Source: a virus
Taxonomy: Duplodnaviria > Heunggongvirae > Uroviricota > Caudoviricetes
Virus record (IMG/VR): IMGVR_UViG_3300029219_000015
Length of the DNA: 36,605 nt
Direction: 5' to 3' (one strand)
This document shows positions 91 through 11,568 of the stretch, piece by piece. The notes beneath the pieces are model-generated. The model made no database searches, was not told where the DNA came from, and worked only from the letters and a program-made list of their open reading frames with translations. A program made the position numbers and the translations under genes. The first letter of the stretch is position 1. The number at the start of each line of letters is the position of its first letter.

Positions 91-177
91 GGGGAGTTAG
101 TCCGTAGAGGTAGCGGTGTAGACTGTAAATCTACTGTCATGGCGACTCGGGTGGTTCGACTCCATCACTCCCCACCA
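91..177 (+). tRNA. tRNA-Tyr (anticodon GTA), long variable arm, CCA encoded
   Basis: Acceptor stem GGGGAGT/ACTCCCC; anticodon stem GTAGA/TCTAC with loop CTGTAAA; about 15-nt variable arm; T-loop TTCGACT; 3' A-CCA. Confidence 0.8.
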
Positions 178-181
178 AATT

Positions 182-257
182 GCCGGTTTAGCTCAGTTGG
201 TAGAGCAGTCGCTTTGTAAGCGAATGGCCAGCGGTTCAAGTCCGTTAACCGGCACCA
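182..257 (+). tRNA. tRNA-Thr (anticodon TGT), CCA encoded
   Basis: Acceptor stem GCCGGTT/AACCGGC; D-arm GCTC-AGTTGGTA-GAGC; anticodon loop TTTGTAA; T-arm AGCGG-TTCAAGT-CCGTT; 3' A-CCA. Anticodon stem has one mismatch. Confidence 0.7.
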
Positions 258-577
258 ACACAACAGGTAAGAGCATTGGGCGAATCGGCGATACTGACCC
301 ACAAGGCCGTAAATCGATAGAGTCAGACCAGTGCTCTTACCGTTGTGAGGAAGTGCAGCTCTTTGAAGCAACCAGAAGATAAGCATCTGGCTTCACAACA
401 CAACGATAATATCATTACGGTTAATCGTCGTTCATGTGCACAATGACTGGTCGAAAGGTAGTGATCTTACCGTTGTGATGAATGCACAGGCTGATGTGCC
501 GCAACTACAGTAGTGCGCGCTTTGCGGGGCTTGCTACAACCCTGTGTCGGAGTTCAGTACCGACCATCACAATAGCT

Positions 578-664
578 GGAGAGTAGGGAGCATGGTGCTC
601 AAGCGGTCTTGAAAACCGTCCCATTGTGCAAACGATGATGGTTCGATTCCATTACTCTCCGCCA
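578..664 (+). tRNA. tRNA-Ser (anticodon TGA), long variable arm, CCA encoded
   Basis: Acceptor stem GGAGAGT/ACTCTCC; anticodon stem GCGGT/ACCGT with loop CTTGAAA; long variable arm; T-loop TTCGATT; discriminator G then CCA. Confidence 0.8.
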
Positions 665-2382: not shown

Positions 2383-3486
2383 ATGAAAAATAGCTTTGAC
2401 AGCGCACGCGCTGCGGAGAACACCTCAAAAGAGGCGATAGAGTATCTCGAAAGAGCATCTCAAATGCAGGCCGTTATGATCTCCCAGGTCAGCAATGACA
2501 TGAGATTCTCGGACGCATTCATGTTATTCACTCGCTTATCTCTGCTGATAACCAGACGTCGGCCAGAGATCGCTGTTCATTGTATTTTGATACATGTTTT
2601 GCCGCACATTGCCGATGTAAAAGTAAGTGACATTAATAGGTTCATGGTGAACCAACTGGTCAACCCACTAATACTGGATGGCAAAATTGTTATGGGCCGC
2701 CGCGTTTTCTCTCTGATGAAGCAGTTCCTTAGCTGGTGCGCCTTCCAGGGGATGATAGACGTGTCACCGTTAAACGATATGTCACTTAACAAAGTTGCCG
2801 GTGGCGCAAAGCCCACACCTCGCGAGCGGAAGCTGACCGACGCAGAGGTATGGGTGTTCTGGAATATATGGGACTACTTCAATGTGTGTGCTGGTACAAA
2901 ATGGGCGGCCAGGCTATGTCTTGTATCCGCAAGACGACCTGACGAAGTACTGCGGGCTAAAAAAAGTGAGTTCAATCTTAAGCGTGGGGTTTGGAATCAA
3001 GGCAAGAGGAACAAATCTGCCCGTGAGCATTCTCTGCCTTTAAGCTCATTAATGCGCACTTGTATTGAAGAGTTGTTCGAATATGGTAAAGACAGCCAGT
3101 GGCTCGTGCCTTCGAATAAAAAAATCGGGAAAGACCTTCCTATGTCTAAAGTGGCAATAGCCCAGGCATTACGTCGTATTCTGGAACGACCAGAACTGAT
3201 GGAGCTTGAGCCATTTACACCCCGAGATTTGCGCCGTACTGCGCGTAGTTACTTCCCAGCATTAGGCATAAGCCAGGAGGTATCACGTAAAATCATGAAC
3301 CACAGTCTTGAGGGGATAGATCGGGTCTACGACCGGCACGATTATATGGACGAGATGCGAGACGCCTTAGAAAGTTTCTCGACGTACATCGCATCAATCG
3401 TAGAGCAACCGGATTTAGACGAAATTGACCACAAATTTAAGGGAGATCGTCTATCAACAGAGCTTATTCGTGTAAATTTTTCATAG
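2383..3486 (+). CDS. Tyrosine recombinase/integrase-like protein, P4-integrase-type C-terminus, apparently lacking an N-terminal arm-binding domain
   Basis: C-terminal motifs ARRPDEV...HSLPLS...FTPRDLRRT...NHSLEGIDRVYDRHDY match the R/K/H-x-x-R/Y pattern of tyrosine recombinases; the box II position that I recall as His is Arg here. Start codon uncertain. Confidence 0.7.
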   Translation: MKNSFDSARAAENTSKEAIEYLERASQMQAVMISQVSNDMRFSDAFMLFTRLSLLITRRRPEIAVHCILIHVLPHIADVKVSDINRFMVNQLVNPLILDGKIVMGRRVFSLMKQFLSWCAFQGMIDVSPLNDMSLNKVAGGAKPTPRERKLTDAEVWVFWNIWDYFNVCAGTKWAARLCLVSARRPDEVLRAKKSEFNLKRGVWNQGKRNKSAREHSLPLSSLMRTCIEELFEYGKDSQWLVPSNKKIGKDLPMSKVAIAQALRRILERPELMELEPFTPRDLRRTARSYFPALGISQEVSRKIMNHSLEGIDRVYDRHDYMDEMRDALESFSTYIASIVEQPDLDEIDHKFKGDRLSTELIRVNFS

Positions 3487-3867
3487 AGACTTTATGGCCT
3501 CAACAACCTTTTGTGATGCGCCTTTCTCTTTACCGAATCGCTCGTTATATGCAGCAAGAACCTGTTTTTCGTCCTCGTTAAGAGGAGCAGTGCCTTCTTT
3601 GTATAAAAATGCTGCGAGTTCGGGTTGGCGTTCTTCCAGCACCATCATCATAAGACGACTTGGCTCAATGCCCAGTGCCAGCGCCAGCGGACGAACCTTA
3701 TCGATAGGCAAAGGAATTTTGCCGCTTTTAATTAAAGAAAGGTTGTTGGCGTTTTTATACCCAATTGTTTTGGCTATCTGGGCCTGGCTCATAGGTGAGG
3801 ATTCAATCAACCCTGCGATAAAAGCAGCGTAGCGACTTTCTATAAATTCAATCTTGTTATCAGACAT
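3481..3867 (-). CDS. Helix-turn-helix (XRE/Cro-CI-like) DNA-binding protein
   Basis: 128 aa; HTH-like segment SQAQIAKTIGYKNANNLSLIKSG; AAAGG 8 nt before the ATG; convergent with and overlapping the recombinase-like gene by 6 nt. Confidence 0.7.
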   Translation of the reverse strand: MSDNKIEFIESRYAAFIAGLIESSPMSQAQIAKTIGYKNANNLSLIKSGKIPLPIDKVRPLALALGIEPSRLMMMVLEERQPELAAFLYKEGTAPLNEDEKQVLAAYNERFGKEKGASQKVVEAIKSL

Positions 3868-4118
3868 GGTTACAACCTTTGCGCGTTCAATTCTCTCTGG
3901 TAAGTGCTTACCGATATTACATCAAAGGTTAGGGTTGTAAAGCTATTATCATTTTTTTCGATAGGCACTTAAAAGACCGGTTAAAGGCCATTGCACGGAG
4001 AAAAATTAGCCCAAAACAGGTAAGAAAATCAACTTGCATATGATATGAATGTATTCAGTATTGATACAAATTTTAGTAGTATTCCTTACCATAGTATAAG
4101 TTAGAATGGATTGATTGA

Positions 4119-4331
4119 ATGAACACCACTATTTCCAGCCTAATCGCTCTTGAGATCGGACACGTACAGAAATTAGCTGATGAGTGTGTAGCTGACATCC
4201 TCACCGATCTACCGAATGAGCAGATTCAGGTTGGTGTGAATGACACAACTGGCTTTATATTCGAACTTAACAACAAACGCTTCACGCTTCTCAATACCGG
4301 CTCCTGGTCTTTAGCCGTCAGAATCTGTTAA
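4119..4331 (+). CDS. Hypothetical small protein
   Basis: 70-aa ORF divergent from the HTH gene; weak RBS. Confidence 0.4.
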   Translation: MNTTISSLIALEIGHVQKLADECVADILTDLPNEQIQVGVNDTTGFIFELNNKRFTLLNTGSWSLAVRIC

Positions 4332-4429
4332 CCCCTCTTCTCCCTGCGCGAATGGCTTAGTTCCCTGTTCGCGCAGTGCTACATTAAACACACTAGTAAA
4401 TAATTTGTTTTCATAACAAAGGATTAGCC

Positions 4430-6538
4430 ATGTCTAAAAAACGTTCCATCAAAGAGGTTCAGGACTTCCGTGACAGTGTAAAACGAGTAGTCGCTCTCCT
4501 TTCAGGTAAAAACATCCCTGTTGCAGAACGAGGGGACGACGCTTATGTACGCTATAACGATGATGGAGAGCCAATTCTCGTAAACATCCCATCAATCCCG
4601 GATAACGCAACACCGGCATTGATGAATGCTGTGCGCGGATTTCTCGATCATGAGGTTGCTCACATTTTGTTTACCGATATTCGTGTGTCCAACAAAATGA
4701 GAGAAAAAGGACGCGTTCCTTCCTGGTCGCTATGGAATGCCTTAGAAGACGTGTTCATCGAGCGAAAAATGGGTCAGGTCTTTAACGGAACAAGACGTAA
4801 TCTGATGGCAACTCAGCGCCTTATAATCGAAAAAGTCTTTAAACCAAAGGCTTCAGAGGCTATTGCTTATTGTGGCAAAGATCAGCGCGCGCTTTTTCTA
4901 AACTTCTTTCTCTGTCCGGTTGTAAGAGCCTGGGATGGCCAAGCACCGTTCGTAGATTTCATGGATGAATATTGGCCTGTCATTGAGAAACCAATTTCAT
5001 TATTAAAAGAACATGGTATCGATGTGGCCGTGCGTAACATGTCTTGCACCGAGGATTGTGTAAAGGTGGCTGCGACCATAGCTAAGATCCTCAAAGACAC
5101 TGAAAGTGAAAGCAAAGGTAAGGAGTCAGCTCCGGGAAAAACTTCCGATCCTTCAGACGCTGACCAGACGGATGCCTCTGGAGAAAACAATGAAGACAAC
5201 GAAGATCATGAGACACCCTCAGCGTTAGATAATCACAAATCTATCAAATCAGAATCACACAGTAAGCACAAACATGATAATAACGACAGTGATGATTCAG
5301 ATAATTCTGAATCATCAGAAACAATATTCGATGATACAGAAAATGATAAAGAGGTATCAGATTCTGGTGCTTCTGATAACGCGGCGTCAGAATCATTTAC
5401 CACTGACCACGAAAAAAGAAAATCGACAGAAGACGGCTCTTCAGACATTCCAACTCCGTCAAAAATGAGTCTGGAAGAGGCTTTAGAGGAGTTGGATAGC
5501 ATGGAAGATGAAGTCGGAGGCATGACAGAAGATGCGCTATCCGAAACGATTAAAAGCGAGTTAACAGAAAGCTCGAAAAGCGAATACAGGCCATACAATC
5601 GCTCATACGACTTCATCGGCTCGATTGATCAGGCAGAAGCCCATATCAAACGGCTTATTAAAACATTCTCCGATATTGATTTAGGTGGATATCCAATCAG
5701 CCGTTATCGCATCGTTCCTGAAGGCAACCAACTCTTCGACAAATATATTGAAAAGCACCTTTCGTCAGGTGTTTCGTCGACGCTGGCAAAAGACCTGGAA
5801 CGTGCAATAGCAAGCAGAAACAGAGTTCAGTTTATACCTGGCCAGCGTCGGGGGCGCATTCATGGTTCAAGTATCTACAGATTAACAATGAATGATGATC
5901 GCGTGTTTCGTAAAAAAGAAGAATCTAAAGCCGTTAACGCCTGTGTTCAACAAGTGATTGATTTATCGGGTTCAATGAGTGGCGAAACGATAAAACTAGC
6001 TCTTGCAAGTGCATATACCATCGCCGATGCACTTGATCGAATAAATGTTCCCAACATTATCACCGGCTTCACTACATTTGGTAGTCATATGGCGGCAGGA
6101 GAACTTAAGGCTGTCAAGTATGAGTTCTCTCGCTTTGAATCTTTAATGCTACCTATCATCAAAAATTGGAATGAAAAGGTAAATTCTCGCGAAGTTCGCT
6201 CACGTATGGGGTGCGTAGGCTACACATTCCCACTTCTTAATAACGTGGATGGTGAAAGCATAGCCAGCCTTGCATCGTTATTTTCCGGTCGCATGGAGGA
6301 CAGGAAGATCATGCTTGTTCTGAGTGATGGCGCGCCGTGGGCTGTTGGGAGAGGTTTTGACGCTCATTTGCGTTCAGTTGCGAAGCAAATTGAAACGCAG
6401 ACTGATATTGATTTGATGGCAATTGGCATCATGACTGACGCACCGGAGAGATTTTACTCAAATCATGCCCTGGTAACGAGCGTTGATAGTCTTGGTTCAT
6501 CTGTAGTTACTGAACTATCTCGTATCATTTTAAAGTGA
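4430..6538 (+). CDS. CobT-like protein with C-terminal von Willebrand A (vWA) domain and long acidic S/D/E-rich linker
   Basis: 702 aa; AAAGGA RBS; MIDAS-like DLSGSMSG motif in the C-terminal third; roughly 160-aa acidic low-complexity region; HEVAH (HExxH-like) near the N-terminus; immediately followed by an AAA+ ATPase gene. Confidence 0.7.
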   Translation: MSKKRSIKEVQDFRDSVKRVVALLSGKNIPVAERGDDAYVRYNDDGEPILVNIPSIPDNATPALMNAVRGFLDHEVAHILFTDIRVSNKMREKGRVPSWSLWNALEDVFIERKMGQVFNGTRRNLMATQRLIIEKVFKPKASEAIAYCGKDQRALFLNFFLCPVVRAWDGQAPFVDFMDEYWPVIEKPISLLKEHGIDVAVRNMSCTEDCVKVAATIAKILKDTESESKGKESAPGKTSDPSDADQTDASGENNEDNEDHETPSALDNHKSIKSESHSKHKHDNNDSDDSDNSESSETIFDDTENDKEVSDSGASDNAASESFTTDHEKRKSTEDGSSDIPTPSKMSLEEALEELDSMEDEVGGMTEDALSETIKSELTESSKSEYRPYNRSYDFIGSIDQAEAHIKRLIKTFSDIDLGGYPISRYRIVPEGNQLFDKYIEKHLSSGVSSTLAKDLERAIASRNRVQFIPGQRRGRIHGSSIYRLTMNDDRVFRKKEESKAVNACVQQVIDLSGSMSGETIKLALASAYTIADALDRINVPNIITGFTTFGSHMAAGELKAVKYEFSRFESLMLPIIKNWNEKVNSREVRSRMGCVGYTFPLLNNVDGESIASLASLFSGRMEDRKIMLVLSDGAPWAVGRGFDAHLRSVAKQIETQTDIDLMAIGIMTDAPERFYSNHALVTSVDSLGSSVVTELSRIILK

Positions 6539-6633
6539 ACAAAACAGCCTTAACGATAAGTAACCACTTACGATAGATAATGATATATTTATATAAGAAG
6601 TTGAACGCTCATTAGAAAACAAAGGAAAAACGC

Positions 6634-7869
6634 ATGACTACTACTGCACTGCAAAATGAAAAAAATCCTTCTGATTACCTTGTTTGCAAGTGGTGCGGAA
6701 AATCATTTCACTATTTTAAGTCCCATGTAGCCAATGGTAATTGCGAGGGCATTCCTGAGTCAGTAAAAGATGCCGATCCTGACACCGTACTGAAAATGTA
6801 CACAACACAGTTTCCAGATGAGCCAACGCTATCGAAAAAGGCACTTGATGCAATTCAAGCTAAACGTGCCGAGCAAAAAAGCGAAATGGCCAAATCATCT
6901 GGCGTGACCAGTAGCCCAGGCTACACAGGCACAGTTGAGTACAAGACAGATCTGGTCGCAGCTCACGAACTGCTAAATGTAACGGTGAAAGAACTCGGAA
7001 CAAAACGTGGGACGCCGCTCATGGTTAGCGTCAACGTCAATACGCCGTTTCCAGAGTTCGTTCCAGAAGTGAAGAAGGGATACGTATATGGCGACTTCGA
7101 ACTGATCAAAGACATTTTCATGATGCTTGAACTTGGCATACCTGGCTATTTGTGGGGTCATGCAGGAACAGGCAAATCTTCATTGCCTACACAACTATGT
7201 GCTTTGCTCAATCGTCCGTTAATCCGTGCCCAACATACAGCATCAATGGAAGAGGCTCATGTTACGGGACAAATTCTGGCGCGTGATGGCTCTACGTATT
7301 TCGAGCCTGGCTTGCTTGCGCTCGCAATGAAGCATGGCTGGGTTTACCTCGCGGATGAATACGACTTTGCGTTTCCACAGATTCTTGGCGTGTATCAGCC
7401 AGTGCTGGAAGGTGAAGCGTTGGTCATCAAAGAGGCGACTCCAGAATGGCGTCGCATTACTCCGCATGAACGGTTTGCTTTCATTGGCACTGGCAACACG
7501 AACGGATCTGGTGATGAAACCGGCTTGTACCAGGGTACAAACATCCAGAACGCCGCGAACTTTTCGCGTTTTGGCATCGTTTCGAATGTGAAATACATGA
7601 GCAAAGAGGCAGAGATCAACATGTTGATAAATGCCGGTATCGTGGATGAATACGCAGAAAAGATGGTTAAGTTTGCCGGTATCGTTCGCGATGGATACGA
7701 AGAACACCTTATCAGTCAGCCAATTGGCCCTCGTGAACTTTTGTTGTCGGCCAAGATTGGAATGATGCGAGGCGACTTTGTGACAGGTATTGAGCGTTCT
7801 TTCATTAACAAACTCCCTTCAGCTTCTGCACAAGCGGCTCGTGAAGTTGTTCAAAAAATATTTGGTTAA
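6634..7869 (+). CDS. CobS-like / MoxR-type AAA+ ATPase with N-terminal Cys-rich zinc-ribbon-like segment
   Basis: 411 aa; Walker A GHAGTGKSS; Walker B VYLADEYDFA; N-terminal CKWCG...C...C; AAAGGAAAAACGC-ATG initiation region. Confidence 0.75.
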   Translation: MTTTALQNEKNPSDYLVCKWCGKSFHYFKSHVANGNCEGIPESVKDADPDTVLKMYTTQFPDEPTLSKKALDAIQAKRAEQKSEMAKSSGVTSSPGYTGTVEYKTDLVAAHELLNVTVKELGTKRGTPLMVSVNVNTPFPEFVPEVKKGYVYGDFELIKDIFMMLELGIPGYLWGHAGTGKSSLPTQLCALLNRPLIRAQHTASMEEAHVTGQILARDGSTYFEPGLLALAMKHGWVYLADEYDFAFPQILGVYQPVLEGEALVIKEATPEWRRITPHERFAFIGTGNTNGSGDETGLYQGTNIQNAANFSRFGIVSNVKYMSKEAEINMLINAGIVDEYAEKMVKFAGIVRDGYEEHLISQPIGPRELLLSAKIGMMRGDFVTGIERSFINKLPSASAQAAREVVQKIFG

Positions 7870-8049
7870 TCGTGCGTAAAGGATGTTTCGGCTCTCTTAT
7901 CGCTGCTTCTGAAACTGGTAAGGCTTGTCTGGTGTGTCCAGACAAGCCCGATTGTCACCAATCAGCAAAAGAAGTTGCGATTTCGATGCATGGGAAGTTC
8001 GTAGGCTTCCCCAATGACAAAATCAAAAAAACCAGAAAGGTAAAAACAC

Positions 8050-11000
8050 ATGAAGGCACTGATGGTTCGAACTGACTTCTCACTTGGGGAGTCGGCTCTA
8101 AAAGCAGAAAACGCGGTGAAGATTGCCAGAGAAGCTGGCTACACCGCTGTAATTTCAGCAGATAGCATGAATATTGCGAGCGTTATTCCACTACAACGTG
8201 CCGCTGGTGACGACATGGCGGTTATTTGTGGTGTGAAACTAAACATTGTTGATGATCCCACATACGAGCACCGGGCTAAACTTGCTAAAGAATCTATGAG
8301 ATGTATGGAATCATTAGAGCGGGGACGTAACTACTCGTTTACCGCTCTAATTAAAAATGAGCAAGGATATCGCGACATCTGCGAACTAATGACGGCGGCC
8401 AACACACGAGAACAGTTCTACTTTGTACCGCGTCTCTCGCTCGAACAGTTGGTTTCTACATATGCCAAAGGCAACATCATCCTGCTTACTTCCGACATCG
8501 GTAGCGTGTTCCAACGCAACGATTTTGCAAAAATCATAAGCACACTGATTACAGCGGGTGGAAAAGACAACTTCTATAGTGTGGTTTATCCGCACCCTAC
8601 CCCATTCTACGACCAGATTAACGTCCGGGCGATGAAAGTCGCCAGCGCATTGAAAATAGAGCCAGTGGCGTTCTATCCCGCTTATTACGAATCGATCGAC
8701 GATGCAGACATTAAAGACATTGCGCACATGGTTACGAACAACATCAAAATCGACCAGCCGCATCGTCTGCGTATCCCCCACCAGCGAGATAACGCCGTCA
8801 ATGGTCGCCGCCATCTCCTTGAGGCGCTTAAAGCCTTCTCCGTTCGCATGGATGTGCCGGTAACAGCTGCAATGGCCTCAACAACGCAGGATACCATTAT
8901 CGATGCCTGCACATGGCGCTGGCATGAATTGCCACCAGCACTGCCCAAGATGGCAGACGACGAACCTGCAACGCTGATGAAACTGGCTGTTGCAGGGCTG
9001 CGTAAACGTCTTACCACAAAAGAGTTTGGATACACACCACCTGCTTCTGAGAACAGGGTTTATGTTGAGCGGCTAAAGTACGAAATGGACACGCTGACTC
9101 GCCTGGGATTCTGTGGTTACTTCCTGATGGTACGCGATCTGATGAATCACAGCCGTGAAACTGGCATTCCTGTCGGGCCTGGTCGTGGTTCCTCTGCCGG
9201 TTCTCTGGTGGCGTGGTGCATAGGCATAACCAACGTCGACCCAATCCGTCACGGTCTTCTGTTTGAGCGTTTCATCAACCCTGAGCGTCTCGACTTGCCG
9301 GATGCGGACTTGGACTTCAGCCAGGCACGTCGCCATGAGGTGATCGAGTATCTGAATGAACGCTACGGCGAAGATTACGTTGCAGGCATTCCGAACTTCA
9401 CCTATCTGGGCGCGGCATCTGCGCTGCGTGACACTGCACGTATTTACGGTGTCGATGCTGCGGATATGGCGGTATCCAAAGAGTTCAAGAATATGGAGGA
9501 CGACAGCCTGTCTCTGGAAGAGCTGCGCGAGCAACTGGCCAGCCTGGACAAATACGCCACGAAAAACCCGGAAGCGTTCAAAGCGGCGTGTAAGCTGCAA
9601 AGCCTGATGCGTGGTTTTGGTCGTCACGCTGCGGGGATGATCGTCGCTGGCGTTCCATTAGTAGAGCGCACGCCCGTCGAGCTGCGTGGCAATGCTCGAT
9701 GTATTGCGTTCGATAAACGTTACTGCGAGGCGATGGGGCTGATTAAGTTGGACGTTCTCGGTCTGGCAACACTCGATCTTCTGGATAGCGCGAAACGCTA
9801 CATCAAAGAGAGTACCGGTGAAGACATCAATCTCGACGCTATCCCACTGGACGATCGCAAGGTTCTGGATGGGTTCGCTGCAGGGTACACGCAGGGCGTA
9901 TTCCAGCTGGAGTCCGGCCCCATGCGTAAGCTGCTTAAAGATCTGGGCGGTGGCATCGAGCCAATGAGTTTCAAAACCGTTGTCGCAACTACCGCCCTCT
10001 TCCGACCGGGACCGATTCAATCCGGCATGTTGGATGACTATGTTTCCGTTGCGAAAGGATTTATGACGCCTACATCACTACATCCTGTCTTGGATGAACT
10101 GACCTCTGAAACAAATGGAGTGATTCTCTATCAGGAACAAACGATGAACGCAACAAGGCTTCTTGCTGGTTTCACAATGGCCGAGGCGGATGGTGTGCGT
10201 TCAGCAATCGGTAAGAAGAACATGGAAAAGATGAGGAGCATGGGTGAGAAATTTGTCATTCAGGCTCAAGCTGGGTGGATCGACGTAGAGCTTGAAAATG
10301 GCGCAATACAACGGATTCATCGCGCAGAACATTTTAAATGCGAGGACGGTACTCTGAGGACAGTTGAAGAGGCGTTGGAGCATGGAGTGAAGCTGCCAAT
10401 GCCAGTTGTGCGCGTTACAACGTCACATCCAGGTCTGTCTGAGACGAAGGCAAAAGAGATATGGACTGCATTTGAGAAAAACGGAGCCTATCAGTTCAAT
10501 AAATCACACTCCGTTGCTTATTCTTTAATCAGTTATCAGTCTATGTGGCTAAAGACGCACTACCCTGCTGAGTTCTTCGCAGCTGCGCTCACCATTCTGG
10601 GCGAGGATAAGCATCAGGGGCTGGTGAAGGATGCGCTGACCTATGGCATTCGCGTATTGCCACCAGACGTTAATGTGTCATCTAACCGAATTGAGATCCG
10701 CACACTCGAAGACGGCAGTCAGGCACTGTATGCGCCATTCTCTGCTGTGAAAGGCTGTTCTGAAAATGGTTGTCAGGCAATTATGCGTGCGCGTGAGAAA
10801 GTTGGTGGCAAATTCGAGTCAGTGGCACAATTCGATGAAGCGGTCGAGAAGCGTGCATGTAACAGTCGTGTACGCGAGTCGCTTCATAAAGTAGGGGCTT
10901 TTGCGTCAATTGAGCCAGGCAGTCTGCCAGCAACTGATCCTGAACGACTGCGCGACCAGGCTGAGCTGATGGGCAATCTCATCATTGACGCTGTTAAAGC

Positions 11001-11568
11001 ATCACGTCCGTTCGAAATGAATCCTAAGCGTTCTGCCGAAATCAACGTACTCATGACACGTATGGCGGCTGAAATGGGCTTGGGTGAGGAGTTGATACGC
11101 CCGACTATTGGTATTAAACCCAAAATCATGATCATTCTGGACAATGCGAACGGCAATGACGCTCGTACCGGCTACTTCATGGAGAACGGATACGACGACT
11201 TTAAGGCAAAACTACTGACAGTTGGAGATCTGCGCATGGGCGATCTTTATGTCACGGGTGTTTGTAAGAAGGTTAAGGACAAAGAGAAAGACTATACCAA
11301 AGACGAGATAGGCCAGTTCACAGACTTTATGCGGGAAGAAATTAATCTTGTACGACCAACCTACATTTTGACGTGTGGTAGTCGTTCAACCGCACTATTT
11401 AACAATAAGAGTAAACCATCAGATCTGATTGGTTGTAAGGAGTACTTCCCAGAGCTTGATGCAACCGTCTTCTACGGATTTAACCCGAATATCCTGTACT
11501 TCCGACCGGAAGAAGGAGAGCGACTGGAGGCCATTCTGGCTGATATCGCGGAGACAATAAATAAGTAA
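8050..11568 (+). CDS. dnaE: DNA polymerase III alpha-subunit homolog (DnaE-type replicative polymerase)
   Basis: 1172 aa; catalytic-core motifs GIPVGPGRGSSAGSLVAWCIGIT...LLFERFINPER...LPDADLDF and FNKSHSVAYSLISYQSMWLKTHYPAEFFAA match DnaE from memory; N-terminal PHP-like region lacks the usual His pair. Confidence 0.85.
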   Translation: MKALMVRTDFSLGESALKAENAVKIAREAGYTAVISADSMNIASVIPLQRAAGDDMAVICGVKLNIVDDPTYEHRAKLAKESMRCMESLERGRNYSFTALIKNEQGYRDICELMTAANTREQFYFVPRLSLEQLVSTYAKGNIILLTSDIGSVFQRNDFAKIISTLITAGGKDNFYSVVYPHPTPFYDQINVRAMKVASALKIEPVAFYPAYYESIDDADIKDIAHMVTNNIKIDQPHRLRIPHQRDNAVNGRRHLLEALKAFSVRMDVPVTAAMASTTQDTIIDACTWRWHELPPALPKMADDEPATLMKLAVAGLRKRLTTKEFGYTPPASENRVYVERLKYEMDTLTRLGFCGYFLMVRDLMNHSRETGIPVGPGRGSSAGSLVAWCIGITNVDPIRHGLLFERFINPERLDLPDADLDFSQARRHEVIEYLNERYGEDYVAGIPNFTYLGAASALRDTARIYGVDAADMAVSKEFKNMEDDSLSLEELREQLASLDKYATKNPEAFKAACKLQSLMRGFGRHAAGMIVAGVPLVERTPVELRGNARCIAFDKRYCEAMGLIKLDVLGLATLDLLDSAKRYIKESTGEDINLDAIPLDDRKVLDGFAAGYTQGVFQLESGPMRKLLKDLGGGIEPMSFKTVVATTALFRPGPIQSGMLDDYVSVAKGFMTPTSLHPVLDELTSETNGVILYQEQTMNATRLLAGFTMAEADGVRSAIGKKNMEKMRSMGEKFVIQAQAGWIDVELENGAIQRIHRAEHFKCEDGTLRTVEEALEHGVKLPMPVVRVTTSHPGLSETKAKEIWTAFEKNGAYQFNKSHSVAYSLISYQSMWLKTHYPAEFFAAALTILGEDKHQGLVKDALTYGIRVLPPDVNVSSNRIEIRTLEDGSQALYAPFSAVKGCSENGCQAIMRAREKVGGKFESVAQFDEAVEKRACNSRVRESLHKVGAFASIEPGSLPATDPERLRDQAELMGNLIIDAVKASRPFEMNPKRSAEINVLMTRMAAEMGLGEELIRPTIGIKPKIMIILDNANGNDARTGYFMENGYDDFKAKLLTVGDLRMGDLYVTGVCKKVKDKEKDYTKDEIGQFTDFMREEINLVRPTYILTCGSRSTALFNNKSKPSDLIGCKEYFPELDATVFYGFNPNILYFRPEEGERLEAILADIAETINK

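What the first reader, a model, noticed from the sequence alone, without database searches (positions are those of the whole stretch)
4430..7869. CobT-like vWA protein plus CobS-like AAA+ ATPase pair
Adjacent genes encode a 702-aa protein (N-terminal domain with an HEVAH motif, a roughly 160-residue acidic Ser/Asp/Glu linker, C-terminal vWA with DxSGS MIDAS-like motif) and a 411-aa MoxR-type AAA+ ATPase with an N-terminal Cys cluster. This matches the CobT/CobS architecture but no other cobalamin genes are present, so the pair probably acts as an ATPase-vWA chaperone or conflict module. The HExxH-like motif could be coincidental.
Basis: partly seen in the sequence, partly recalled or inferred. 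Interest (0 to 1): 0.55.

Follow-up and report, generated by a model that had tools for sequence, protein, structure and literature searches.

The report
Phage CobS/CobT-like motor and protease-adaptor
Two adjacent genes of an E. coli phage-plasmid encode relatives of the cobalt-chelatase motor (CobS) and adaptor (CobT); they keep an intact protease-type zinc site, sit among DNA-replication genes and have no chelatase partner, so they are probably a protein-remodelling machine of phage replication rather than vitamin B12 genes.

Summary
The window is an SSU5-like phage-plasmid, 97% identical to Escherichia phage Cyrano. The pair occurs in 219 of 5426 complete E. coli genomes, always on plasmids. 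Both proteins are true but distant relatives of the aerobic cobaltochelatase subunits CobT and CobS, scoring about a tenth of the NCBIfam equivalog cut-offs. The MIDAS site, the 'shaft' that enters the CobS ring, and the ATPase motifs are conserved. The HExxH is not a coincidence: H74, E75, H78, E106, D107 and E111 are invariant in 128 diverse homologs. The domain models as an M48-like zincin. Genuine CobT has the same fold but reads S-M-x-x-R there. The CobS-like protein carries an extra N-terminal Ros/MucR-type zinc finger (a weak, profile-level hit). No CobN or other B12 gene is in the phage. In five unrelated element lineages the pair lies inside the DNA replication or recombination cluster; here the order is CobT, CobS, 4-Cys protein, DnaE. 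Best reading: an ATP-driven remodelling and proteolysis machine of the replication phase, client unknown. It is a known, annotated family whose function is untested and which is probably mislabelled as a B12 gene.

The parts
4430..6538 (+). CobT-like adaptor gene (702 aa): zincin N-domain, acidic linker, shaft, vWA/MIDAS
4430..5125 (+). N-terminal M48-like zincin domain (aa 1-232): helix a1, three beta strands, then helices
4649..4663 (+). HEVAH (aa 74-78), predicted zinc-binding and catalytic motif
   Evidence: Invariant in 128 sequences; present in 127 of 127 full-length representatives
4745..4762 (+). E106-D107-x3-E111 on the next long helix, candidate third zinc ligand ('glutamate helix')
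   Evidence: Invariant; helix 97-117 in the models
5093..5584 (+). Acidic Ser/Asp/Glu-rich disordered linker (aa 222-385)
   Evidence: pLDDT below 50 for aa 243-335
5816..5935 (+). 'Shaft' (aa 463-502), counterpart of genuine CobT Q373-R413, which inserts into the CobS ring pore
   Evidence: Alignment to 9uka_G; AF2 strand 465-472, helix 479-487, strand 493-499; function described
5936..6535 (+). vWA domain with MIDAS residues D511, S513, S515, N605, D633
   Evidence: genuine MIDAS residues listed
6634..7869 (+). CobS-like MoxR-class AAA+ ATPase gene (411 aa)
6673..6813 (+). N-terminal Ros/MucR-type zinc-finger-like module (aa 14-60; C18, C21, H31, C37)
   Evidence: Family profile against Ros87 (2jsp_A), E 4e-4. 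PF05443 is hit by 20 of 24 family members, but not by the window protein on its own. C18, H26 and H31 are at least 90% conserved.
7126..7866 (+). AAA+ core plus lid (aa 165-411). Walker A 175-182 and Walker B D241/E242 are identified directly; N288/N290, R312 and R367 are conserved residues assigned by position.
7872..8075 (+). 67-aa 4-Cys protein (GCFGS-x12-C-x2-C-x6-C). It starts 2 nt after the CobS-like stop and overlaps the dnaE start by 26 nt. It corresponds to the N-terminal domain of the phrog_3616 family, which lies upstream of DnaE in the lineage.
8050..11568 (+). DnaE-type DNA polymerase III alpha (1172 aa); the conserved downstream neighbour
4119..4331 (+). 70-aa ORF (phrog_2627), conserved just upstream of the pair only in the enterobacterial group
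3481..3867 (-). Divergent HTH repressor (CYRAN_45 homolog). The pair opens the rightward gene block next to it.

Best explanation
The pair is a CobST-type AAA+ motor and adaptor that does not make B12. It works in the early, replicative phase of the phage-plasmid as an ATP-driven protein remodelling and cleavage machine. Shown by sequence and models: the CobS-like protein has all the ATPase motifs of a MoxR/CobS hexameric motor. The CobT-like protein keeps the shaft that enters the CobS pore, the five MIDAS residues, and an M48-like zincin N-domain with an intact HExxH...E site. Inferred by analogy with the solved CobST(N) complex: the N-domain docks on the CobS lid. The MIDAS face and the N-domain hold a client protein where CobN sits in the chelatase. 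ATP hydrolysis pulls on the shaft to deform the client. The client, or the adaptor's own linker, can then be cut at the zinc site. Inferred from context: the client is a protein of DNA replication or a DNA-bound protein. Reasons are the Ros/MucR-like zinc finger on the motor, the conserved CobT-CobS-4Cys-DnaE block, and the position of related pairs inside replication clusters of unrelated phages. The identity of the client is not known.
For: Family and mechanism parts:
- Pfam, PDB and NCBIfam hits.
- The MIDAS and shaft residues map onto genuine CobT D422/S424/S426/N518/D546 and Q373-R413.
- The ATPase motifs are at least 90% conserved.

Zincin domain:
- H74, E75, H78, E106, D107 and E111 are invariant in 128 sequences of 26-61% identity.
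- HExxH is present in 127 of 127 representatives and in nearly all viral loci.
- Genuine CobT_N has an M48C-like fold but reads S-M-A-L-R at this position.

Not a chelatase:
- The bit scores are 74.6 against a cut-off of 759, and 84.8 against 558.
- Cyrano encodes no CobN, cob or cbi genes.
- The phage RNR is NrdAB, which does not use B12.
- E. coli has no CobN and no aerobic B12 pathway (established knowledge).

Replication link:
- The order CobT, CobS, (0.2-2.1 kb), DnaE holds in 27 loci, down to about 30% identity.
- The CobS, 67-aa and dnaE reading frames abut or overlap.
- In S-PM2 the pair lies between gp46/47 and gp45/44/62/43.
- In Vibrio phage JSF27 it lies upstream of the helicase and PolA.
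- In IMG/VR loci it lies between primase and polymerase, between SbcCD and the clamp loader, or next to RNR.
- In a Salmonella genomic island it lies beside ssb and bet.
- The zinc finger is supported.
- The genes are not listed among those expressed in the lysogen.
Against: - There is no experiment of any kind on this family in the searched literature.
- Phage early regions are mostly DNA-metabolism genes anyway, so neighbourhood is weak evidence.
- Most DnaE-encoding phages lack the pair, and most phages with the pair lack DnaE. The DnaE link may simply be inherited synteny.
- The Nickievirus clade has lost HExxH (DSEISK) but keeps the pair. Proteolysis is therefore dispensable at least there.
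- The Ros/MucR similarity is seen only at profile level and not for the window protein alone.
Confidence: 0.45

Rival explanations
1. Host-takeover or anti-defence machine. The same motor-adaptor-protease removes or degrades a host protein, such as a defence factor, a nucleoid protein or a host replisome part, early after induction or entry.
Against: No known anti-defence or defence family matches. The pair sits in the conserved replication core and not in variable accessory regions. A core gene that is stable across very different hosts is unusual for a counter-defence function.
Confidence: 0.2
2. Metallochaperone. Like NorQ/NorD, CoxD/E or CobST itself, the pair inserts or exchanges a metal in a phage enzyme, for example class I RNR or the PHP domain of DnaE. 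The HExxH site would hold the metal rather than cut peptides.
For: The closest structural relatives of the vWA domain are NorD and the Midasin MIDAS domain. CobST drives metal insertion. RNR genes are adjacent in one locus and present in the window. DnaE has a PHP domain.
Against: The invariant Glu of HExxH is the general base of peptidases and is not needed merely to hold a metal. No particular metalloenzyme co-occurs in all lineages.
Confidence: 0.12
3. Virion-assembly chaperone with processing protease, as proposed for the MoxR plus metallopeptidase-vWA pair of T4-like jumbo phages and the MoxR-vWA pair of Acidianus two-tailed virus.
For: Iyer et al. 2021 (PMC7824862) propose this for the same kind of pair.
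Against: Here and in S-PM2 the genes lie in the replication cluster, far from the head and tail genes. A related pair sits in a Salmonella genomic island among ssb, bet and methylase genes, with no virion genes in the 16-kb stretch examined.
Confidence: 0.08
4. Genuine auxiliary metabolic genes. The viral CobS/CobT join a host CobN to raise cobalamin synthesis, which is the common view in the literature.
For: There is real homology to CobS and CobT, including the shaft and MIDAS. The view is stated in PMC8651126 and PMC11705849.
Against: E. coli, the host here, has no CobN and makes no B12 de novo (established knowledge). The scores are far below the equivalog cut-offs. The invariant HExxH is absent from genuine CobT. 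The motor has an extra zinc-finger domain. The phage encodes no annotated B12-dependent enzyme.
Confidence: 0.05
5. Host-protective conflict or abortive-infection module carried by the plasmid prophage.
For: MoxR-vWA pairs occur in conflict systems (Kaur et al. 2020, listed). The element carries several toxin-antitoxin pairs.
Against: The only PADLOC match is a marginal one to DrmE, E 7e-4. The genes are not among those expressed in the lysogen. The pair is core in strictly lytic phages.
Confidence: 0.04

Closest known systems
CobS/CobT motor-adaptor of aerobic cobaltochelatase CobNST (PDB 9uka and related entries; bioRxiv 10.64898/2026.07.21.739949)
   Same: Shared features are an AAA+ motor with the GDxTGLYxGT signature and an adaptor with an M48-like N-domain. 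The disordered acidic linker, the shaft before the vWA domain and all five MIDAS residues are also shared. The two genes are adjacent in both cases.
   Different: Identity is about 25-30% and the scores are about a tenth of the equivalog cut-offs. The adaptor keeps HExxH where genuine CobT reads S-M-A-L-R. The motor has an added N-terminal zinc-finger region of about 105 aa and gives no CobS_N Pfam hit. There is no CobN partner. The gene order is T then S, and the setting is a replication module.
MoxR AAA+ plus metallopeptidase-vWA pair of T4-like jumbo phages and cyanophages (Iyer et al. 2021, PMC7824862; S-PM2 'Peptidase' d119 plus CobS)
   Same: It is the same two-protein family. S-PM2 d119 has HEVGH, NVIEDARIEK and DWSGS. 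That pair also lies in the replication cluster.
   Different: The cyanophage motor lacks the zinc finger. The polymerase next to it is T4 gp43 with its clamp and clamp loader, not DnaE. The published proposal for that pair is virion assembly.
NorQ/NorD, CbbQ/CbbO and Rea1/Midasin (MoxR-class motor with a MIDAS-bearing vWA adaptor)
   Same: These are the best structural matches of the vWA domain (NorD and MDN1 MIDAS) and sequence matches of the motor (Midasin, CbbQ, NorQ). They share the general logic of a ring that pulls on a vWA adaptor which grips a client.
   Different: None of them has a zincin domain on the adaptor or a zinc finger on the motor. Their clients are known (NOR, Rubisco, pre-60S factors).
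M48/M56 gluzincin peptidases (Ste24/ZMPSTE24, BepA, HtpX, BlaR1)
   Different: The domain here is soluble, with no membrane segments. Sequence identity is only 8-12%. It is fused to a vWA domain. Activity is untested.
Ros/MucR prokaryotic zinc finger (Ros87, PDB 2jsp)
   Same: The C-x2-C...H...H signature and the following 'tpEeY' helix. Some family members have Asp in place of the second Cys, as some Ros homologs are reported to have (from my own knowledge, not checked here).
   Different: The match covers only about 40 residues at E 4e-4. The enterobacterial version has a 12-residue insertion, with C37 as the likely fourth ligand. DNA binding is not shown.
SPRTN/Wss1 with Cdc48/p97, and plasmid ArdC (DNA-associated zincin proteases); analogy only
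   Different: No demonstrated homology beyond the zincin core, and different domain make-up.

Membership tests
Cobaltochelatase subunit CobT (TIGR01651 equivalog) | Whole-protein score above the curated cut-off | tested here: not met
   74.6 bits against a cut-off of 759; only the vWA half aligns
Cobaltochelatase subunit CobT | Architecture: M48-like N-domain, acidic linker, shaft, vWA with MIDAS | tested here: met
Cobaltochelatase subunit CobT | A CobN (or ChlH-type) catalytic partner is available | tested here: not met
   None is annotated in the window or in the whole 108-kb genome of the 97%-identical phage Cyrano. The absence of CobN from E. coli rests on established knowledge and was not searched here.
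Cobaltochelatase subunit CobS (TIGR01650 equivalog) | Whole-protein score above the curated cut-off; CobS_N domain present | tested here: not met
   84.8 bits against a cut-off of 558.55. There is no PF12556 hit, whereas the genuine CobS in L069 has one.
MoxR-class AAA+ ATPase (AAA_5) | AAA_5 domain above cut-off; Walker A and B and conserved downstream polar and Arg residues; adjacent vWA partner | tested here: met
   57.4 bits against a cut-off of 22. G175-S182, D241/E242, N288/N290, R312 and R367 are at least 90% conserved. PDB relatives are CobS, Midasin, CbbQ and NorQ.
vWA domain with MIDAS | DxSxS plus a downstream Thr/Asn and Asp, conserved in homologs | tested here: met
   D511, S513 and S515 are invariant; N605 and D633 are at least 90% conserved. 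The fold matches NorD and MDN1 MIDAS.
Zincin (gluzincin, M48-like) metallopeptidase | HExxH on a helix after a beta sheet, an acidic third ligand on a later helix, and the zincin fold | tested here: met
Zincin metallopeptidase | Zinc binding and peptide-bond hydrolysis | not testable with these tools
   This needs purified protein. The loss of the motif in Nickievirus shows that activity is not universally required.
Ros/MucR zinc finger (PF05443) | CCHH-type zinc site with the Ros fold; DNA binding | tested here: inconclusive
   Family profile against Ros87, E 4e-4. 20 of 24 members hit PF05443, best E 3e-5, but the window protein itself does not.
Known anti-phage defence systems (PADLOC) | Match to a defence-system protein model | tested here: not met
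   Only a marginal DrmE match, E 7e-4, on the CobT-like protein; none for the ATPase

The most novel reading that the evidence does not exclude
The 'cobS/cobT' genes of phages, including the core pair of marine cyanomyoviruses, are not B12 genes. They would instead be a replisome-associated machine: a MoxR-type motor, DNA-tethered through a zinc finger in this lineage, that drives a vWA adaptor carrying a live zincin protease. That machine would clear, mature or cut a protein at the replication fork. It would be a bacterial-virus counterpart of protease-plus-AAA+ systems such as SPRTN/Wss1 with Cdc48. The cobaltochelatase adaptor CobT would then be a relative of this protease-adaptor type in which the zinc site is lost; which form is ancestral was not tested.
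Probability: 0.25. Interest if true: 0.75.

Novelty: new variant of a known kind. Interest (0 to 1): 0.5.

Why it matters
Viral cobS/cobT are widely listed as auxiliary metabolic genes for vitamin B12. They are core genes of T4-like cyanophages and sit on phage-plasmids in about 4% of complete E. coli genomes. If they are instead a replication-phase remodelling and protease machine, a common annotation and the ecological inferences built on it are wrong, and a new accessory activity of phage DNA replication is waiting to be defined. This locus is the practical place to test that. It lies in E. coli and Salmonella elements (Cyrano, SSU5) that can be induced and quantified, in hosts that have no CobN to confound the result. 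It also bears on how the cobaltochelatase adaptor relates to a protease-type ancestor or relative.

Tried and rejected
- Foldseek of the full model returned vWA matches only, because the CobST entries are newer than that library.
- A protein search seeded with the C-terminal half of genuine CobT returned only truncated proteins. I recovered the genuine N-domain from the DNA of one of them, where the gene is split by a frameshift in the assembly.
- General coupling of the pair to DnaE is rejected. There are 1194 DnaE-type phage records, mostly actinophages and PB1-like phages, against 494 CobS-type records, mostly cyanophages, with little overlap in genera.
- PADLOC gave no usable hit.
- The promoter and terminator scan of 3400-8200 was no better than shuffles, with 6 promoter-like sites against 8.2 expected, so I make no promoter claim.
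- Pfam on the isolated N-terminal pieces of both window proteins found nothing beyond Pfam CobT itself.
- Literature searches found no functional experiment on viral or ICE-borne CobS/CobT.
- The structure coordinates are not exposed to the script tool, so I could not measure the zinc-site geometry.
Full report
**What is there**

The two ORFs are exactly as reported: 4430-6538 (+, 702 aa) and 6634-7869 (+, 411 aa). Both are preceded by AAGGA-type ribosome-binding sites.

In the 702-aa protein:
- HEVAH lies at aa 74-78. Only 0.025 such motifs are expected by chance from the protein's composition.
- A 164-residue linker (aa 222-385) has 30% D+E, 27% S+T and a net charge of -35.
- DLSGS lies at 511-515 and SDG at 632-634.

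In the 411-aa protein:
- Walker A is GHAGTGKS (175-182) and Walker B is D241-E242.
- The N-terminal cluster is C18, C21 and C37, with H26 and H31.

Profile searches agree. Pfam finds CobT (1.9e-27) and CobT_C/vWA (1.7e-82) in the first protein and AAA_5 (2.1e-15) in the second. PHROGs assigns phrog_1576 and phrog_249, the latter labelled 'porphyrin biosynthesis'.

**Where it comes from**

The window is an SSU5-like phage-plasmid, 97% identical over 8 kb to Escherichia phage Cyrano (pLF82). At 95% identity or more, the pair is found in 194 PLSDB plasmids and in 219 of 5426 complete E. coli genomes. It is never chromosomal, and the plasmids are about 100-116 kb and almost all non-mobilizable. 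RefSeq calls the proteins 'cobaltochelatase CobT-related protein' and 'AAA family ATPase'. The genes are therefore known and annotated; what is not known is what they do.

The genes around the pair deal with replication, recombination and nucleotide metabolism:
- upstream: an integrase and a divergent HTH repressor;
- then a 70-aa ORF, the CobT-like gene, the CobS-like gene, a 67-aa ORF and DnaE;
- downstream: HicAB, UvsY, a gp32-like SSB, RecA, RepA, SbcCD, RuvC, NrdAB, ThyX and DHFR.

**Relation to genuine CobS/CobT**

The homology is real but distant.
- Sequence searches against solved structures return cobaltochelatase CobT (9uka_G, 4e-17; 5e-62 with a family profile) and CobS (9ujv_A, 1.8e-25).
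- The NCBIfam equivalog models are missed by a wide margin: 74.6 bits against 759 for CobT, and 84.8 against 558.55 for CobS.

A July 2026 preprint on the CobSTN holoenzyme (bioRxiv 10.64898/2026.07.21.739949) gives the working parts of the genuine system:
- CobT_N has an M48C-peptidase-like fold and docks on the CobS small subdomain.
- A 'shaft' (Q373-R413) just before the vWA domain inserts into the pore of the CobS hexamer.
- CobN sits between CobT_N and the MIDAS face (D422, S424, S426, N518, D546).

These parts map onto the window protein.
- The MIDAS residues correspond to D511, S513, S515, N605 and D633.
- The shaft corresponds to about R463-V502 (alignment).
- AlphaFold2 on 128 diverse sequences (pLDDT 85.4, pTM 0.79) predicts strand 465-472, helix 479-487 and strand 493-499 for the shaft. 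It predicts a disordered linker over aa 243-335. The N-domain has one helix, three strands and then helices, the same topology as described for CobT_N.
- The vWA domain is structurally closest to NorD and the Midasin MIDAS domain.
- In the CobS-like protein, the Walker A and B motifs and a set of other residues, including N288/N290, R312 and R367, are at least 90% conserved across the lineage. Their roles as sensor and arginine-finger residues are my assignment by position.

**The HExxH is not a coincidence**

- An exhaustive search with the N-domain found 1125 cluster representatives at E of 1e-3 or better.
- All 127 full-length proteins among the best 150 have HExxH.
- In the 128-sequence alignment (26-61% identity to the query), H74, E75, H78, E106, D107 and E111 are invariant, together with D511, S513 and S515.
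- The N-domain modelled alone gives pLDDT 92.9.
- Genuine CobT was recovered from a Brucellaceae genome and aligned by profile (hhalign E 3.6e-5). It reads RGLGDSMALRQARHN where the window protein reads RGFLDHEVAHILFTD. Thus H74, E75 and H78 are replaced by S, M and R, while E106 and E111 are kept.

So the mobile-element clade has a complete gluzincin signature that the chelatase adaptor lacks. The motif is also present in distant viral relatives, including the 'Peptidase' gene next to cobS in cyanophage S-PM2. It is lost in the Nickievirus clade, which reads DSEISK. Catalysis is therefore not indispensable everywhere. Iyer et al. 2021 (PMC7824862) had already noted a MoxR plus metallopeptidase-vWA pair in T4-like jumbo phages.

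**The 'Cys cluster'**

In 24-27 lineage members, the first ~105 residues of the CobS-like protein form an addition that genuine CobS (328 aa) lacks. C18, H26 and H31 are at least 90% conserved, and the second Cys is sometimes Asp. A profile of this region hits the Ros zinc-finger structure 2jsp_A (E 4e-4), and 20 of 24 members hit Pfam ROS_MUCR. The window protein alone does not reach that hit. It has a 12-residue insertion in which C37 probably replaces the last His. This is a lead for DNA binding, not a demonstration. Residues ~108-155 resemble the N-terminal segment of genuine CobS, judged by eye against a sequence recalled from memory.

**Context**

- In every locus whose CobT-like N-domain is closely related (down to about 30% identity) and whose contig is long enough, the order is CobT, CobS, a gap of 0.2-2.1 kb, then DnaE. 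That makes 27 loci besides the window. They include Pseudomonas phage nickie, Rhizobium phage RHph_X66 and many IMG/VR contigs.
- The gap holds a sigma-70-like gene in 12 loci and a 180-230-aa phrog_3616 protein in 16 loci. The N-terminal 4-Cys domain of that protein is what the window's 67-aa ORF (7872-8075) encodes.
- The 67-aa ORF starts 2 nt after the CobS-like stop codon and overlaps the dnaE start by 26 nt.
- The link to DnaE is not general. DnaE-type polymerases occur in 1194 phage records, mostly actinophages and PB1-like phages. CobS-like genes occur in 494 records, mostly cyanomyoviruses.
- Unrelated lineages nevertheless also place the pair inside their replication clusters:
  - S-PM2: between gp46/gp47 and gp45/gp44/gp62/gp43.
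  - Vibrio phage JSF27: upstream of the helicase and PolA.
  - IMG/VR L033: between the primase and a PolA-type polymerase.
  - IMG/VR L047: between SbcCD and the clamp loader.
  - IMG/VR L042: next to RNR.
  - A Salmonella genomic island: beside ssb and bet.
- All ten neighbouring proteins I tested were DNA or nucleotide-metabolism families.

**Against the B12 reading**

- The closest complete phage genome has no CobN or other cob/cbi gene, and its RNR is NrdAB.
- E. coli has no CobN and no de novo B12 synthesis (established knowledge, not tested here).
- The Cyrano record names the genes 'dimethylbenzimidazole phosphoribosyltransferase' and 'cobalamin synthetase'. I take these to be the unrelated Salmonella-nomenclature CobT and CobS, that is, a name mix-up.
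- The genes are not listed among those expressed in the LF82 lysogen (PMC9928086).
- PADLOC finds no defence family.

**Conclusion**

The machine parts are well supported: a hexameric MoxR/CobS-type motor, a vWA/MIDAS adaptor with a pore-inserting shaft, and a zincin domain with an intact active-site signature. By analogy with CobSTN, the adaptor should hold a client where CobN sits, the motor should deform that client, and the zinc site could cut it. Context points to the replication phase and possibly to DNA-bound clients. The client is unknown, and no experiment exists in the searched literature. I put about 0.45 on the replication-linked remodelling and proteolysis reading. The rivals are host takeover (0.2), metallochaperone (0.12), virion assembly (0.08), true chelatase subunits (0.05) and host defence (0.04). 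This is a known, annotated gene family and a new variant of the CobST/MoxR-vWA kind. Its interest lies in the likely misannotation of a very common 'auxiliary metabolic gene' pair, and in the fact that this E. coli element makes the question testable.

Noticed in passing
window 7872-8075 (+): A 67-aa ORF with four conserved Cys (GCFGS-x12-C-x2-C-x6-C) lies between the CobS-like gene and dnaE and overlaps the dnaE start by 26 nt. It is not annotated in the Cyrano record. It corresponds to the N-terminal domain of the 180-230-aa phrog_3616 proteins found just upstream of DnaE in 16 related loci.
   Followed up: partly
window 8050-11568 (+), aa 1053-1168 of DnaE: The DnaE-type polymerase has a C-terminal extension with weak similarity to family-4 uracil-DNA glycosylases (TIGR00758, E 1e-6; also phrog_13175 and phrog_4335). 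Streptomyces phage DnaE hits stop at about aa 950-990, while the Stenotrophomonas phage hit runs to aa 1150, so the extension may be specific to this phage lineage.
   Followed up: no
L006 (Cyrano OV696614.1) CYRAN_47 and CYRAN_48, equivalent to window 4430-7869: The record names the two genes 'dimethylbenzimidazole phosphoribosyltransferase' and 'cobalamin synthetase'. To my knowledge these are the unrelated Salmonella-nomenclature CobT and CobS, so this looks like a name-collision misannotation.
   Followed up: partly
L001 7974-10058 (Pseudomonas phage nickie cobT) and L025: The Nickievirus-type CobT-like proteins have lost the HExxH (DSEISK) and part of the second motif (PLESFFCEKE). They keep the MIDAS site, the CobS-like partner and the DnaE neighbour.
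   Followed up: partly
L002 11734-12378 and 11 other loci, between the CobS-like gene and DnaE: A sigma-70 region-2-containing protein of about 210 aa is inserted between the CobS-like gene and the 4-Cys protein in 12 non-enterobacterial loci.
   Followed up: no
L069 3316-5380 (Brucellaceae GCA_012103055.1): The genuine cobT of this assembly is split between two reading frames. The N-domain lies in ORF 3316-4251 and the called 459-aa product starts at 4001, which suggests a frameshift or assembly error. Here cobS and cobT are adjacent but lie among housekeeping genes, not with cobN.
   Followed up: no
L004 (Xanthomonas phage JGB6 OQ436456.1): In this record the cobT-like, cobS-like and dnaE genes are broken into many short annotated CDSs, some mislabelled (for example a cobT fragment called 'DNA polymerase III subunit alpha'). 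The sequence looks riddled with frameshifts.
   Followed up: no
window 91-664 (+): Three tRNA genes (Tyr-GTA, Thr-TGT, Ser-TGA) lie at the left end of the window. The Cyrano record annotates Asn, Thr and Ser tRNAs in a tighter cluster at the corresponding place. The first 3 kb of the window are also lower in G+C (0.38 against 0.44-0.52 elsewhere).
   Followed up: no
L005 (Salmonella Typhimurium genomic island AB571791) 1804-2772 and 8001-9797: An island carries a CobS-like AAA+ gene and, 5 kb away, an HEAAH-vWA (DMSSS) CobT-like gene. The genes ssb, bet and others lie between them, so the pair is split rather than adjacent.
   Followed up: partly
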